A stretch of DNA of 9,933 nucleotides, taken from positions 1-9,933 of the forward strand of contig NW_021827760.1 in NCBI RefSeq assembly GCF_006345805.1, read 5' to 3'. Numbering within the stretch: position 1 is the first letter of the stretch; every line of letters starts with the position of its first letter. The position numbers and the translations under genes were made by a program. The notes under the pieces were generated by a model. It made no database searches, was not told where the DNA came from, and was given only the letters and a program-made list of their open reading frames with translations. Shown here piece by piece: positions 273-9,871 of the stretch. The DNA comes from Octopus sinensis. Its lineage: Eukaryota.

Positions 273-591
273 TTATGTTAGTTTGGCACTACTAGCATGT
301 TTGCGAGCAAATGAGGCTAAAGTTTGTACTTTAATTCTTGCCAATAAAATATACGAGTTTGTATCTACCTAATGGCTTTTCTTGGATATTTAAATAAACA
401 AAAAATGTAAATCAAATAATGTTCTAATTGATTGCAAAGTATTTTTATGTAGCGCATAGAAATTAGAACAAAACATTGAAATACCGTTAGGCTTCCCTAT
501 CTTTCGCTATCAATGTGTACAGGCATAGTCATGTGATTAAAACGTTCACATGACTTTCTTATCAATCCCAGAAAATGTGATGTCTGTTGAA

Positions 592-907
592 GGCGCGTGG
601 CCTTGTGGTTATAGTGTTGCACGCACGATGAGGGAAGGGGTCGTGGTTTCAATCCCTGTTCCCGGTGGTGCTTTGTGTCCTTCAAAAAAACACTACATAT
701 AACGTTACTTTTTGATCACTTCGACGCCTGACATGTGATACACAGTGCACCTTTTTAGGCGTCGTCGATTTGATGGAGGAACTGAGCTAACACACTGCAG
801 GAACATTTCAAGGAGTGACACACAAATAAGAAAGAAGGAAGCAAAGGACCACTGATGCGATCACAGGAGTGTGACGAAAGAATTCTGGCCGAAATAAGAT
901 TAAGATT
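592..907 (+). mobile_element. tRNA-derived SINE (family C here), diverged
   Basis: GGCGCG start, Pol III A-box-like TGGCCTTGTGG (598-608), B-box-like GGTTTCAATCC (645-655), CORE-like TTGTGTCCTT..AAACACT (~673-694) and a short tandem tail TAAGAT-TAAGAT (895-906). The 3' boundary is inferred and no TSD was seen. Confidence 0.7.
846..890 (+). ncRNA. Candidate variant type I hammerhead ribozyme in the SINE 3' region
   Basis: Stem I GG(A)CCA 846-851 / TGGCC 886-890; core CTGATG 852-857; stem II TCACA-GGAG-TGTGA 861-874 closed by G859-C875; GAAA 876-879; short stem III region GAAT; UC cleavage site 884-885. Deviations are C at the A9 position and a bulged A860. Confidence 0.35.
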
Positions 908-1098
908 AATGTAAAAAACAAATAACGCTATAGCAAAGTAACACCAAATATATAATGCGTGTGTTTTTATTGGCTTAACTGGCAAAATGACCATTCTTAA
1001 ATACAACAATATCTGTTTCAACACACGATTTCACATCAAAAATCCTGCAAAACAAATATATAAACGTAAAAAAAACTCACCATTATTAACAAATCATC

Positions 1099-1109
1099 TG
1101 CGCATGCGC
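1099..1109. promoter_or_regulatory. NRF1/EWG-like palindromic site TGCGCATGCGC
   Basis: 11 of 12 positions match the NRF1 consensus YGCGCAYGCGCR, in an otherwise AT-rich context. Function is not shown. Confidence 0.3.
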
Positions 1110-1296
1110 CTCAGCAAAAAATTGCAGAACCATCTTTTACGTACTACGAAAGATACCAGCATGTGAATTGATTTCTTGATCCCGCTTCTTCACCATATTC
1201 ACATTATAACCGAAACCTTGTGAATTAAACCGGTTGAAAGGGAGGGAAGCCACGGGAAGGGCTTCTGCACACCCCTGGGTAGTATGCTTAACCTTT

Positions 1297-1313: not shown

Positions 1314-1544
1314 GGCGGCGAGCTGGCAGAAACGTTAGCACGTCGGACGAAATGTGTTGTCGTATTTCGTCTGCCGTTACGTTCTGAGTTCAAATTCTGC
1401 CGAAGTCGACTTTGCTTTTCATCCTTTCGGGATTGATAAATTAAGTACCAGTTACGCACTGGGGTCGATGTAATCGACTTAATCCGTTTGTCTGTCCTTG
1501 TTTGTCCCCTCTGTGTGTAGCCCCTTGTGGGTAATAAAGAAACA
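1314..1544 (+). mobile_element. tRNA-derived SINE family A, full-length monomer
   Basis: GGCGGCGAGCTGGCAGAA head, A-box-like 1324-1334, B-box-like GTTCAAAT 1388-1395, central TTTCATCCTTTCGGG..GATAAATTAAGTACC block and AAAGAAA tail. Highly similar to 7541-7769, with a 17-bp TSD. Confidence 0.93.
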
Positions 1545-2249
1545 GATATTTGTGTACCTTTATTACAGTTCACTCCATTCTGAGTATTCGTTCCCGCTCC
1601 ACCGTTCTCAAAAATTAACATGATATTCTTATACTCTGGTATCGATACATTTATTGGTATCGTTAAGTATCAATACCTTTTCTGTAGTATGCCCTACGTC
1701 GAAAATTACTCCTTCTTTTCTTTCTCTCTGCCATCTATATCAAAAGGTCTGTAAAGTTTACAGTTGCTCTTCTTTCATTCTCTAAAATAAACTGTAAGAC
1801 CTGGGTACTTAAGCCAATAAGTTGCTAAAAATAAAATCCATTATCTTAACCCCGGCCTGATAGAATTAAATTGTAGAAATTTGCATAGAATGGGATTCTT
1901 AGGAGGCGGTTGAGTACGTCTTTTATGTTTCGTTCGTCCAGCAAGAAATAAAAATATGTAAAAGAAAAACAAAATAAACATCGACAACGAAACATTTCAG
2001 AAATAGAAACGGGAATTTCTGCGTACGGCTTGAGTAAATTTGGAATCTATTTGAGCCTTAAGACGACCAGAGATTAAACAACCGACCCAATAAACTCCGT
2101 CCATCATCTATAAACGTAGAGTGGGATTGACTTGTTGCGGCAGGTCATTGTTAATTCGAACAGAATTTTAATCGATAAAGTAACCTCTTATCTTCAAGCT
2201 ATGTCACTTATGAGATTTTCGTGGATTGAAGAAGACTGGATAGGATTTA

Positions 2250-2600: not shown

Positions 2601-2701
2601 ATCAATTTAATCATATGCATAAATTGGGAAAAATCCACTCATACACTCAGACGAACTTATGCAGCTGTACACCTATGAAAGCTAATACGTATAGAAATAT
2701 A

Positions 2702-4030
2702 CGAGGGTGGGCTGAAAAGTTCATAGGCTGACAATGAAGGGTTCATGCTAGAGCTGTGAAATCTTGCATACATTTACTTCAACACATCTTATTAATAACT
2801 GCATTGTTTATTTCTAGAAAAACGGACATGTGACTTTTCAATGACAACCTCAAGAGTAACTGGTAGTGACCTCTCTTATAAATGGTTTTTGGCAACGTGG
2901 TCTTACCTGCAACGTGGTCTTACCTGCAGAAAAGGTGTTTAGGCACCATGGACATTCATGTTGAGATTGTTGTTATATTAGGAGGTGACGCGTTATCAAT
3001 AGTGTTATCAACAGTGCAAAAACGGACAGCCGAATTTAGGAGGAGAAAGGAGAGTCTTGCAGATGACTTAAGGGCTGGACATCATGCAATTGCCCCTACC
3101 GAGGAGGAAAGCATCGTGTTCACCACATGGTGATGGAAGATAGGCCAGTGACTATAAATCAAATAGCCAATGCTATTGGTGTATCCTCTGAGAGAGTTGA
3201 GAATATTCTGCTCAGTAAACTTGGCATGGGGAAGGCTTCTGTTCTGTAGGTGCCATGTCTTCAAACACCTGATCAAAAGCACACCTGGCTCTTCATATCA
3301 CGGATATGTCTGACATTGCTTGAGGCGGATCTACCTGGTCTCTTTGAACATTTCGTCACCAAGTATGAGTTAGAGACAAACAAATGATGGAGTGGAAACG
3401 CTCCAGTTCACCTGCTCCAAAGAAGGCCAAAGGAGGCTTCCTTTGCTGGGAAGCGGATGGCCTAAGTTATTTGGAGTACACAAAGTATTGTGTTTATTGA
3501 CTATCTTCAAAAGGGTCACATCATCAATGGAGAGTACCATGCCAACACGCGGAGACAGTTATGAAAGGTTATGGAGATAAAAAAAGCCAGAAAATCTGTG
3601 GAAGGGGAGGGGTGTCTTCCTTCATCTGGACAATGCTCCAGCACACAAGTCTCTGGTTTCAATGATTGTTAGGCGTGACTGTGATTGGTTGATAACCTTT
3701 CCTTTTCTCCTGGTTTATGTTTGCCCACTGAAACCCTCTTTCATGGGGCCGAAGAGATGATAGTCCAGTGACGATGATAGTCCAGTGACGAGGAAGTGAA
3801 AACTGTAGTGAAGAAGTGGATGAAAAAACAGTCAATAGAATTTTACGGGACAGGCATACATGCTCTCATTCAAGGGTGGACATTGCTATTGAGAGAAACG
3901 ATGACTACGTTGAGGAGTCGGGATGTAATCTACAGAGGACCAGCTTCCTTTTGATGTATAATACATGTCCCTGTGTTAGTAATTATACCTGTCTTAAACA
4001 AGATGGCATTACTTTTTTGACCCTCCCTCG
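2702..4030 (+). mobile_element. Decayed mariner (Tc1/mariner) DNA transposon, 1329 bp
   Basis: TA dinucleotides flank both ends (2700-2701, 4031-4032). The left end CGAGGGTGGGCTGAAAAGT and the reverse-complemented right end CGAGGGAGGGTCAAAAAAGT form imperfect TIRs. Internal transposase motifs are present and the size is typical of mariners. Confidence 0.92.
2882..3920 (+). pseudogene. Mariner transposase pseudogene (frameshifts, stops, deletions)
   Basis: HTH region YLQK...LSTVQKRTAEFRRRKESLADDLRAG; *VPCLQTPDQK at 3247 (WVPHEL motif, W changed to stop); FVTKYE at 3352 (first catalytic D lost); HLDNAPAHK with D at 3629; DNLSFSPGL 3691-3717 (decayed HPPYSPDL, third D missing); C-terminal SSDEEVKTVVKKW...FYGTGIHALIQGW/IAIERNDDYVE from 3781. 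Confidence 0.9.
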
Positions 4031-7279: not shown

Positions 7280-7540
7280 GAAGATGAATAGATGTATAGA
7301 CAAAGATATTATGTAAGAAGAGACAGACAGATAGATAAAATAGACAGTAAGACTGACAGTAAGATATATAGACAGATAGAGACACAGATCTAAAGATTGA
7401 AAGATACGCATTAGCAAAAGAAAAACAGAGAGGCAGGCAGATAGAAAGATTTGTAGAGAGAGATAAGAGATAGAAAAAGAGGTAGATTCATGAACAGATA
7501 GATAGATAGACAGACAGACAGATAGGCAGGTAGGTAGATA
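7280..7540. repeat. Degenerate (GATA)n/(GACA)n purine-rich tract, continuing at 7954-8078 after the SINE dimer
   Basis: GATA/GACA units lie on both sides of the SINE insertion. Confidence 0.85.
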
Positions 7541-7769
7541 GGCGGCGAGCTGGCAGAAAAGTTAGCACGACGGACGAAATGCTTAGCGGTATTTCGTCTG
7601 TGTTACGTTCTGAGTTCAAATTCCCGCGAGGTCGACTTTGCCTTTCACATCTTTCGGGTCGATAATTAAGTACCAGTTACGCACTGGGGTCGATGTAATC
7701 GACTTAATACCTATGTCTGTCCTTGTTTGTCCCCTCTGTGTTTAGCCCCTTGTGGCTAATAAAGAAATA
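7541..7769 (+). mobile_element. tRNA-derived SINE family A, full-length first unit of a dimer
   Basis: Colinear with 1314-1544 from GGCGGCGAGCTGGCAGAA to AAAGAAATA. Confidence 0.93.
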
Positions 7770-7953
7770 GGTATTTCGTCTGCCGTTACGTTCTGAGTTC
7801 AAATTCCGCCGAGGTCGACTTTATCTTTCATCTTTTCGGGGTCGATAAATTAAGTAGCAGTCACGCACTGGTGTCGATGTAATCGACTTAATCCCCTTGT
7901 CTGTCCTTGTTTGTCCTCTCTGTATTTAGCCCCTTGTGGGCAGTAAAGAAATA
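7770..7953 (+). mobile_element. SINE family A, headless second unit (no A box) fused head-to-tail
   Basis: Restarts at the internal GGTATTTCGTCTG and runs to AAAGAAATA. TAGGTAGATA at 7531-7540 and 7952-7961 may be a TSD around the whole dimer. Confidence 0.92.
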
Positions 7954-8079
7954 GGTAGATAAACAGACAAACAGTTAGATAGATAGAAAAGTAAATAGAT
8001 AGATAGATAGAAATATAGACATGTAGAAAGATAGATAGATGCAAATATAGTGATGTAGAGAGAAAGATGGATATAGAAA

Positions 8080-8790: not shown

Positions 8791-8935
8791 CACACACATA
8801 TATATATATATATATATATTATTATATATATATATATATATAATATATTATAAATGTGTGTGTGTACACATATATATGCACACTCATATGTATGCATGTA
8901 CGTACGTACGTACCTACCTACATACCTATACATGC
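8577..8935. repeat. (TA)n arrays (8577-8658, 8744-~8850) and mixed microsatellite
   Basis: Directly visible, interrupted by a unique island at 8661-8743. Confidence 0.93.
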
Positions 8936-8936
8936 A

Positions 8937-9082
8937 TTTTTTTCTCTCCTTGTTTGTCTTCTTGTTTTTTTCTGTGTATCTTTCTGTAGAAGAGCGTAGG
9001 CTCGAAACGTAAAAGACTTTTTCTATTCCTGAGCGCTATACTAATACATTTGTTTGTACTCCATCTATTTTCGTAAACTTCC
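8937..9082 (+). mobile_element. Probable Penelope-like element terminal (pLTR) fragment
   Basis: T-rich island between microsatellites, carrying a minimal hammerhead-like motif of the kind known from Penelope-like pLTRs. No RT or GIY-YIG coding sequence was seen and the boundaries are approximate. Confidence 0.55.
8979..9016 (+). ncRNA. Minimal type I hammerhead-ribozyme-like motif (variant core)
   Basis: Stem I TCTTT 8979-8983 / AAAGA 9012-9016; core CTGTAGA(A) 8984-8991; stem II GAGC-GTAG-GCTC 8992-9003; GAAA 9004-9007; palindromic ACGT stem III; GUA site ending at 9011. Confidence 0.6.
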
Positions 9083-9083
9083 G

Positions 9084-9170
9084 TACCTACCTACCTACCT
9101 ACCTACCTACCTACCTGTTTATCTATTTATTTATCTATCTATCTTTATATACATATATGTTTATGTGTAT
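9084..9170. repeat. (CTAC)n then degenerate (TATC)n/(TA)n
   Basis: Directly visible. Confidence 0.9.
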
Positions 9171-9450: not shown

Positions 9451-9871
9451 TGCACAGGAGTGGCTGTGTGGTAAGTAGCTTGCTTACCAACCACATGGTT
9501 CCGGGTTCAGTCCCACTGCATGGCATCTTGGGCAAGTGTCTTCTGCTATAGCCCCGGGCCGACCAATGCCTTGTGAGTGGATTTGGTAGACGGAAACAGA
9601 AAGAAGCCTGTCGTATATATGTATATATATATAAGTGTGTGTGTGTATATGTTTGTGTGTCTGTGTTTGTCCCCCTAGCATTGCTTGACAACCGATGCTG
9701 GTGTGTTTACGTCCCCGTCACTTAGCGGTTCGGCAAAAGAGACCGATATAATAAATACTGGGCTTACAAAAAAAGAATAAGTCCCGGGGTCGATTTGCTC
9801 GACTAAAGGCGGTGCTCCAGCATGGCGGCAGTCAAATGATTGAAACGAGTAAAAGAGTAAAGAGTAAAGAG
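9451..9871 (+). mobile_element. tRNA-derived SINE family B, full length, with internal microsatellite
   Basis: A box TGGCTGTGTGG 9461-9471, B box GGTTCAGTCCC 9504-9514, CORE-like CTTGGGCAAGTGTCTT from 9527, internal (TA)/(TG) tract ~9615-9668 and tandem tail (GAGTAAA)n 9847-9871. Confidence 0.9.

What the first reader, a model, noticed from the sequence alone, without database searches (positions are those of the whole stretch)
592..907. tRNA-derived SINE that appears to end in a hammerhead-ribozyme fold
Seen: just before the TAAGAT tail, all type I hammerhead parts occur in the correct order: stem I (GGACCA/TGGCC), CTGATG, a perfect 5-bp stem II with a GGAG loop, CGAAA, a tiny stem III and a UC site (885). 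Known: Schistosoma Sm-alpha is a tRNA-derived SINE-like repeat carrying a hammerhead, and Penelope elements and retrozymes carry minimal type I hammerheads. Inference: this may be a ribozyme-processed SINE family, or a tRNA head fused to a Penelope/retrozyme-derived tail, which I do not know to be described in cephalopods. Caveats: A9 is C, A860 is bulged, and linkage of the motif to the SINE head rests on one copy.
Basis: partly seen in the sequence, partly recalled or inferred. Interest (0 to 1): 0.8.

Follow-up and report, generated by a model that had tools for sequence, protein, structure and literature searches.

The report
Penelope hammerhead inserted into older SINE
The hammerhead-like motif is real but is not the tail of a SINE: it belongs to a 259-base end fragment of a Penelope-like jumping gene that sits between the two halves of a more diverged, likely older and likely tRNA-derived SINE, so this is most likely an ordinary one-off nested insertion whose ribozyme is predicted to be weak or dead.

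Summary
The motif at 846-890 is there as described, but 592-907 is not one element. 588-809 is the 5' part of a SINE family (73-78% identity to 29 other copies). Its 3' part resumes at 1079-1167. Between the halves, 810-1068 is the 3' pseudo-LTR end of a Penelope-like element (PLE). The motif has at least 1,644 exact genomic matches. In long copies it lies on the sense strand about 0.5 kb after an RT + GIY-YIG ORF. No other locus joins head and motif (0 of 88 motif loci, 0 of 29 SINE loci), and the junction is unique genome-wide. TAAGAT is internal sequence, not a tail. The fold fits the known minimal PLE hammerhead, and distant relatives keep it with different stems. C9 is the family majority; only 180 of 1,644 matches have A9. 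The youngest copies also change C17 to U. Verdict: new member of a known kind, low interest. Side leads: core drift in active copies, and an IFD-sized insertion in the RT.

The parts
588..809 (+). 5' part of a SINE of a tRNA-like family. A-box-like TGGCCTTGTGG at 598-608 and B-box-like GGTTTCAATCC at 645-655 (box consensus recalled, read by eye). Interrupted at 809/810.
   Evidence: 39 other matches at 72-78% identity among 40 scored of 1,087 candidates. A profile from 29 other copies matches 588-810 at model positions 2-220, E 5e-57. No Rfam tRNA or ARAGORN hit.
810..1068 (+). 5'-truncated 3' end (pseudo-LTR) of a Penelope-like element: end of the 3' UTR, hammerhead motif, start of the next ORF, tail.
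   Evidence: 44 other matches at 91-98%, all starting at or after 810. Maps to 503-703 nt after the stop of the RT + GIY-YIG ORF in L093. Contig depth about 1,000-fold higher over 810-1068 than on the flanks in runs X14 and X15.
846..890 (+). Minimal type I hammerhead motif. Stem I 846-851/886-890, core C3-G8 at 852-857, C9 at 858, extra nt 859, stem II 860-865/870-875, GAAA 876-879, 2-bp stem III, predicted cut after C885. This copy has two minority changes, G860A and C883T.
   Evidence: Same architecture with different stem sequences in distant PLEs L180 and L182. Cleavage not tested.
895..909 (+). TAAGAT x2.5: internal sequence of the pseudo-LTR, not a SINE tail.
   Evidence: homology continues past it in 27 of 29 loci.
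987..1068 (+). First 27 codons of the PLE ORF (MTILKYNNICFNTRF...), carried in the pseudo-LTR, 101 nt after the predicted cut site.
   Evidence: In tandem copy L205 the same peptide runs on for 58 codons and, after a frame change, into the ORF N-terminus seen in L167. Relative L182 starts its ORF at a similar distance.
1013..1068 (+). About 56-nt optional 'tail' between the two preferred 3' ends of the family.
   Evidence: Of 203 copy ends, 78 fall at 1005-1014 and 79 at 1060-1068. Loose ends at 1012 and 1068 in run contigs. Long copies with both ends usually carry the tail at one end only.
1079..1167 (+). 3' remainder of the interrupted SINE.
   Evidence: Profile match at model positions 220-307, E 0.004, continuing where the 5' part stops. 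Pairwise scores 76 and 71 against L045 and L036, best of 100 shuffles 31 and 27; many of the 29 copies score near shuffle level.

Best explanation
The stretch is a nested pair of retroelements: a 259-nt 3' pseudo-LTR fragment of a Penelope-like element (810-1068), which carries the hammerhead motif, lies between the two halves of a likely older, likely tRNA-derived SINE (588-809 and 1079-1167), most likely through one 5'-truncated insertion. Shown: the two families, their borders, the split SINE, the sense-strand position of the motif between the 3' UTR and the next start codon, and the two 3' ends. Inferred: the element's GIY-YIG nuclease nicked the target, and its RT copied the RNA from the far (tail) start site and stopped after about 260 nt. 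Inferred from known PLE biology: in tandem source elements the motif would cut read-through RNA after C17, about 100 nt before the start codon, probably slowly and as a dimer. With C9 in most copies and U17 in the youngest, cleavage is likely weak and may no longer be needed for transposition. This solo copy, with two further changes and no partner, is likely inert.
For: Independence of the two parts. Split SINE; also contigs of other SINE copies in runs X14 and X15 that join 794 to 1111 through 36 SINE-like letters (short side 28 nt). Age order: SINE copy 73-78% identical to its relatives, PLE copy 95% identical to its nearest. [quoted passage not shown] Most long-end copies are followed by (TA)n (read by eye). 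These match the PLE layout in PMC8557442 (passages). Hammerhead homology: L182 (47% aa identity) has a canonical core and L180 (46%) a U3-A8, C9 core about 130 nt after their ORF matches; 38 of 39 stem II cells pair, and 4 of 5 pairs change on both sides. The extra nt before 10.1, long helix II and G10.1-C11.1 fit PMC4209133. PMC11167929 (passages) reports that catalytic HHR mutants still insert in vitro.
Against: The 3' SINE half scores only E 0.004, and about 10 nt at 1069-1078 are unassigned, so no target-site duplication could be read. Run contigs identical to the window cross both junctions, but by only 16 and 28-29 letters, under the tool's 31-letter rule, so independent bridging is not shown. 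Pfam hits are below curated cut-offs (RVT_1 20.4 of 29.6 bits, GIY-YIG 21 of 22.6). Rfam finds no hammerhead. Loop III (GAAC) is not palindromic, unlike the published PLE pattern. 4 of 8 metagenome relatives with 3' flank showed no recognisable motif, and 2 of the 4 positives were picked by eye. The covariation alignment has 8 rows, 4 from one family, chosen because they showed the fold. This copy is not in a (TA)n target.
Confidence: 0.93

Rival explanations
1. A ribozyme-processed SINE family in the manner of Schistosoma Sm-alpha: Pol III head plus hammerhead, mobilised as a unit.
For: Order and orientation fit: a tRNA-like head on the same strand upstream of the motif. Such elements exist in schistosomes (PMC6765202 passages).
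Against: 0 of 44, 0 of 88 and 0 of 29 linked copies. Junction unique. SINE resumes after 1068. The parts differ about five-fold in divergence from their relatives. T-runs in the head (708-713, 752-756) would likely stop Pol III before the motif (inferred).
Confidence: 0.02
2. The motif is a fully working ribozyme variant: C9 is tolerated in this lineage, and cleavage still makes the 5' end of the element's RNA.
For: C9 is carried by the most intact and youngest copies and recurs with U3-A8 in a distant relative, L180. Stem II, C3-G8 and GAAA are unchanged in the majority of all four sub-groups. Active natural core variants are known (PMC3088659 section 8), though none at position 9 in the text I read.
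Against: A9 is part of the consensus core. C9 could pair Watson-Crick with G12 (inferred from recalled structure). The family's total divergence is only about 3%, so unchanged stems say little. Metazoan minimal motifs cleave poorly even with a perfect core.
Confidence: 0.3
3. The junction is an assembly chimera between two repeats, or the motif is a chance look-alike.
For: The window starts a short contig in a repeat-rich assembly. No Rfam support and an unremarkable folding z-score.
Against: The SINE halves are collinear on either side. Contigs from two DNA runs match flank-plus-junction stretches with 0 differences. The motif sits at the homologous place in distant PLEs with compensatory stems.
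Confidence: 0.03

Closest known systems
Minimal type I hammerheads in the pseudo-LTRs of metazoan Penelope-like elements (Cervera and de la Pena 2014, PMC4209133)
   Same: Sense-strand motif in the pseudo-LTR; long helix II; one unpaired nt between 9 and 10.1; G10.1-C11.1; tiny helix III; mostly found as solo truncated copies and as close inverted pairs.
   Different: C at position 9 in most copies (A in 180 of 1,644); loop III not palindromic; youngest sub-group has U17.
Canonical C-terminal-EN PLEs, closest by eye to Nematis (Craig et al. 2021, PMC8557442)
   Same: Single ORF with RT, a CX4CxxC linker with a short spacer to the next Cys, and GIY-YIG; pseudo-LTRs; inverted 5' copy; one-sided tail; (TA)n preference.
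   Different: 129-133 aa between RT motif A Asp and motif B' Gly in 25 of 26 aligned proteins (one not matched by the pattern), against about 63 in Poseidon and about 118 in human TERT (hand counts from Fig. S1 text). DKS in place of DKG. Tail about 56 nt rather than 30-40. No tree against reference clades was made.
Schistosoma Sm-alpha / Sj-alpha hammerhead SINE-like repeats (via review PMC6765202)
   Same: At this one locus a Pol III-type head lies upstream of a type I hammerhead.
   Different: Head and motif are not one family, are not tandem, and differ in age; the SINE continues after the insert.
Animal non-LTR retrozymes (bioRxiv 10.64898/2026.07.22.740005, part 1 of 5 read)
   Same: Type I hammerhead related to PLE pseudo-LTRs.
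   Different: This is a truncated end of a coding element and includes its first codons; no tandem array here.
Octopus tRNA-derived SINEs (OK, OR1, OR2; only OR2 and the 1994 citation were seen in PMC4758252, the other names are recalled)
   Same: About 300-nt repeat with A- and B-box-like motifs in an Octopus genome.
   Different: No reference sequences were available, so the family name is not assigned.

Membership tests
Penelope-like element, C-terminal EN+ | Single ORF with RT followed by GIY-YIG endonuclease | tested here: met
   ORFs of 525-1,120 aa with YVDD and VVYSIRC...YVGET..R; Pfam RVT_1 and GIY-YIG at E 4e-4, below curated cut-offs. The window holds only the first 27 codons.
Penelope-like element, C-terminal EN+ | Pseudo-LTR with a sense-strand hammerhead; tandem copies run into the next ORF | tested here: met
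   Motif 544 nt after the stop in L093; L205 reads from the pseudo-LTR into the ORF start.
Penelope-like element, C-terminal EN+ | Inverted 5'-truncated copy and an optional tail at one end | tested here: met
   two end peaks, 78 and 79 of 203. Tail about 56 nt.
Nematis clade | CX2-5CxxC linker before the EN with a short spacer | tested here: met
   LCTDNYCTVC-7 aa-C, compared by eye with Fig. S2 text.
Nematis clade | No insertion in the RT fingers (canonical PLEs lack the IFD) | tested here: not met
   129-133 aa spacing against about 63 in Poseidon; statement in PMC8557442.
Nematis clade | Grouping with Nematis in an RT tree | not tested
   No reference sequences were available as tool inputs.
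Minimal type I hammerhead of PLEs | Core C3 U4 G5 A6 N7 G8 A9 ... G12 A13 A14 A15.1 U16.1 H17 | tested here: not met
   Position 9 is C here and in 89 of the first 100 listed matches; a full core in 180 of 1,644.
Minimal type I hammerhead of PLEs | Long helix II closed by G10.1-C11.1, with an extra nt after position 9 | tested here: met
   Family majority G860-C875, 111 of 122. The window copy has A860 and needs a bulge.
Minimal type I hammerhead of PLEs | Palindromic 15.2-16.2 and loop III, for dimer formation | tested here: not met
   Majority GAAC; a dimer helix would hold two A-A mismatches (sequence). L180 and L182 have palindromic TA repeats there.
Minimal type I hammerhead of PLEs | Covariation of stems between lineages | tested here: inconclusive
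   Stem II: 38 of 39 cells paired, 4 of 5 pairs changed on both sides, 0 of 500 shuffles as high in score; only 8 hand-picked rows. No covariation within the octopus family. Stem I not counted.
Minimal type I hammerhead of PLEs | Self-cleavage after H17 | not testable with these tools
   Needs an in vitro assay; only contigs, no raw RNA reads, were offered.
Sm-alpha-type hammerhead SINE | Pol III head and hammerhead linked across many copies | tested here: not met
Non-LTR retrozyme | Non-coding tandem units, each with a hammerhead | tested here: not met
   Single copy here; derived from a coding element.
tRNA-derived SINE | tRNA-like head with A and B boxes; dispersed short copies | tested here: inconclusive
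   Box-like motifs conserved in the alignment of 30 copies, dispersed family of about 300 nt; no tRNA model hit.

The most novel reading that the evidence does not exclude
The host element belongs to an unnamed, widespread lineage of C-terminal-endonuclease Penelope-like elements with a telomerase-sized insertion in the RT fingers. In octopus its latest waves spread with a hammerhead that has left the consensus (A9 to C9, then C17 to U17). That is a natural experiment showing either that C9 is a working core variant in this lineage (it recurs in distant L180) or that the ribozyme is dispensable in vivo.
Probability: 0.3. Interest if true: 0.5.

Novelty: new member of a known kind. Interest (0 to 1): 0.2.

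Why it matters
The finding as posed matters little: nested insertions are common in repeat-rich genomes, and hammerheads in Penelope pseudo-LTRs are established. The useful by-product is a recently active octopus PLE family with near-intact ORFs and dated A9, C9 and C9/U17 sub-groups. They give ready constructs to test the open question of whether PLE hammerheads are needed for transposition. The long insertion at the IFD position also conflicts with the published statement that canonical C-terminal-EN PLEs lack one.

Tried and rejected
Rfam scans of the window, of 560-1200, of one SINE copy and of one A9 copy gave no hammerhead or tRNA hit; ARAGORN found nothing. Monomer folding z-scores of the window motif are unremarkable. 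Sequencing runs: no RNA holder listed, contigs only, so RNA ends at 885/886 could not be mapped; this is no evidence on expression. A single-protein metagenome scan found nothing; the alignment scan gave 11 loci. The lower substitution rate in core and stem II than in flanks was rejected as evidence, because about half of the loci were fetched by an exact pattern over those positions. The copy tree is weakly supported and unrooted, and it needs 4 changes for A9, so the order A9 to C9 rests on divergence levels and outgroup motifs, not on the tree. Some rows are the same insertion fetched twice. The pair count was mis-indexed by one column and was redone. L079 and L178 did not show read-through into the ORF; L205 did. 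PDB search gave only weak bacterial RT hits. A short upstream frame starting inside the motif was considered: 4 of 7 recurrent variants are synonymous, against 2 of 7 in each other frame, too weak to claim. Earlier scan notes: nothing for this genome or sequence; the 8 shown concern other genomes. Lunse et al. (RNA Biol 14:1499) is not held, so I saw only its citation; it may already describe C9 or U6 core variants.

Full report
1. Observation. A relaxed type I descriptor that I wrote hits only position 852 in the window, against 0.01 hits per locally resampled window (300 resamples). The motif alone folds no better than shuffles, and Rfam and ARAGORN report no hammerhead or tRNA. The host is most likely an Octopus: the element's protein is 98% identical to a predicted O. 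vulgaris protein.

2. The region is two elements. Searching the own genome with 592-910 gave 45 matches (40 of 1,301 candidates scored). The 44 that are not the window all begin at or after 810. In the 29 fetched loci the upstream DNA is either the element's own 3' UTR, an inverted copy of its downstream part, or unrelated DNA, and in 27 of 29 homology runs on at least about 60 nt past the supposed tail. Searching with 592-809 alone gave a separate family at 72-78% identity. In 29 fetched copies the family continues with its own 3' sequence and ends after about 300 nt; none has the 810+ sequence adjacent. Of 88 motif-bearing loci (some overlapping or duplicated), one holds a SINE head, about 820 nt beyond the PLE copy, and none holds it adjacent. 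The 27-nt junction has one match in the assembly at up to 3 mismatches, the window itself.

3. The SINE is split. A profile from the 29 other copies matches 588-810 at model positions 2-220 (E 5e-57) and 1079-1167 at positions 220-307 (E 0.004). The 3' piece scores 76 and 71 against L045 and L036, with best shuffles 31 and 27; many other copies score near shuffle level, which fits a sub-family with a different tail. In two DNA runs, contig depth rises about 1,000-fold across 810-1068 and falls again. One contig in each run joins 794 to 1111 through 36 SINE-like letters, as an uninterrupted relative would. Contigs identical to the window cross each junction, but by only 16 and 28-29 letters, so they do not count as bridges. 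No target duplication could be read.

4. The insert is a Penelope-like element end. A 34-nt pattern over the motif has 1,644 exact matches, control 0. [quoted passage not shown] The motif lies on the sense strand 544 nt after the stop in L093. A protein search found 151 scored matches with open frames up to 1,120 aa. Of 20 long copies fetched, most have the motif downstream of the ORF and many have an inverted copy upstream. Copy ends cluster at 1005-1014 (78 of 203) and 1060-1068 (79 of 203), a tail of about 56 nt, and long ends are mostly followed by (TA)n. The ATG at 987 is the ORF start: L205 reads from it into the N-terminus, and relatives L181, L182 and L186 start open frames a similar distance behind their 3' UTRs. 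This layout is that of PLEs in PMC8557442 (passages, sections 11-12 and part of the supplement) and PMC11167929 (passages). The linker resembles Nematis by eye. The RT has 129-133 aa between motifs A and B' in 25 of 26 aligned proteins, about twice the Poseidon spacing, so clade membership is left open.

5. The hammerhead. The family majority has a 6-bp stem II closed by G-C, one extra G after position 9, and a 2-bp stem III with an AA loop. This fits the minimal PLE hammerhead of PMC4209133 (parts 1-2 of 4 read), except for C9 and the non-palindromic loop III. A860 and T883 are minority states (10 and 9 of 122). A9 is present in 180 of 1,644 matches; 89 of the first 100 listed have C. The pattern requires C17, so the U17 group is not counted there. 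In a non-random sample of 123 copies, mean divergence from the group majority was 2.8% (A9, n=32), 3.1% (C9 on the older background, n=12 with the window), 2.0% (C9, n=53) and 0.6% (C9/U17, n=19). The longest ORFs mostly carry C9/U17. The run contigs show the same variants (A at 858 in 9-50% of depth, T at 885 in 2-32%). Among 11 metagenome relatives, 8 had 3' flank. My descriptor found a motif in 2 (L182, canonical core; L180, U3-A8 with C9), I read 2 more by eye (L181, L183), and 4 showed none. L180-L182 fold with stems I and II, and stem II pairs in 38 of 39 cells with changes on both sides in 4 of 5 pairs (small, hand-picked set). So the motif is a true homologue of PLE hammerheads. Whether the C9 form cuts is untested.

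6. Mechanism. Shown: borders, families, split SINE, position of the motif. Inferred: a source element's RNA was copied by its own RT at an endonuclease nick inside an old SINE, starting from the tail end and stopping after about 260 nt. From the literature: PLE hammerheads are thought to process tandem transcripts as dimers, cleave slowly in vitro (review PMC6765202 passages), and were not needed for insertion in vitro in an Anolis PLE. The spread of C9 and C9/U17 copies fits a weak or dispensable ribozyme (my odds about 0.65) over a tolerated variant (about 0.3). PMC3088659 (passages and section 8) lists A9 in the consensus core and describes active variants at other positions.

7. Novelty. 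Hammerheads in PLEs are known; PLEs are known to be recently active in O. vulgaris (PMC13282606 passages); 235 Hammerhead_1 hits were reported in giant squid (PMC6962438 passage). I found no description of this family's motif in searches for hammerhead + SINE + octopus, hammerhead + octopus + Penelope, hammerhead ribozyme + A9C + catalytic core, or Penelope/Nematis/IFD; these were search listings. The library lacks most subscription papers and Repbase, Lunse et al. is not held, and I read only parts of the Craig supplement and none of the Cervera supplements, which may bear on core variants. Verdict: new member of a known kind; interest 0.2.

Noticed in passing
window 8984-9010 (repeat about 8935-9085): A second minimal-hammerhead-like motif with U in place of A6 and a free position 7. 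It has 13,792 exact matches, control 0; all four bases occur at position 7, while 99 of the 100 listed keep T at position 6. L193 has a GIY-YIG frame upstream, and copies end in (TA)n, so it is likely another, much larger PLE family with a fixed core variant. It may be more interesting than the given finding.
   Followed up: partly
L161:3601-5841 and homologues P0002-P0056: C-terminal-EN PLE proteins with a roughly 70-aa insertion at the IFD position of the RT, shared by relatives at 41-50% identity; 173 homologues found, nearly all unnamed.
   Followed up: partly
window 855-914: The AUG inside the hammerhead core opens a 19-codon frame, in frame with the ORF start at 987 but separated by two stops. 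It is intact in 108 of 122 copies, and the common variants at 858, 860 and 885 are synonymous in it. In the Anolis PLE the ORF starts at the hammerhead. Weak hint only.
   Followed up: partly
L181:4965-5020; L183:3420-3465: Further core variants in distant relatives, read by eye: GAAU in place of GAAA (L181) and U3-A8 (L183).
   Followed up: no
window 1315-1548, 7540-7957, 9458-9870: Other SINE-like repeats: a family with three copies, two in tandem with period 184, and a longer one with an internal (TA)/(TG) tract that shares a short motif with it.
   Followed up: no
window 2701-4030: A degenerate stretch that looks by eye like a mariner-type DNA transposon (ends TACGAGGG... and ...CCCTCGTA are inverted); family label recalled, not tested.
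   Followed up: no
L096:479-2709: An inverted pair of a different GIY-YIG element with a Neptune-like long linker, next to a copy of this family.
   Followed up: no
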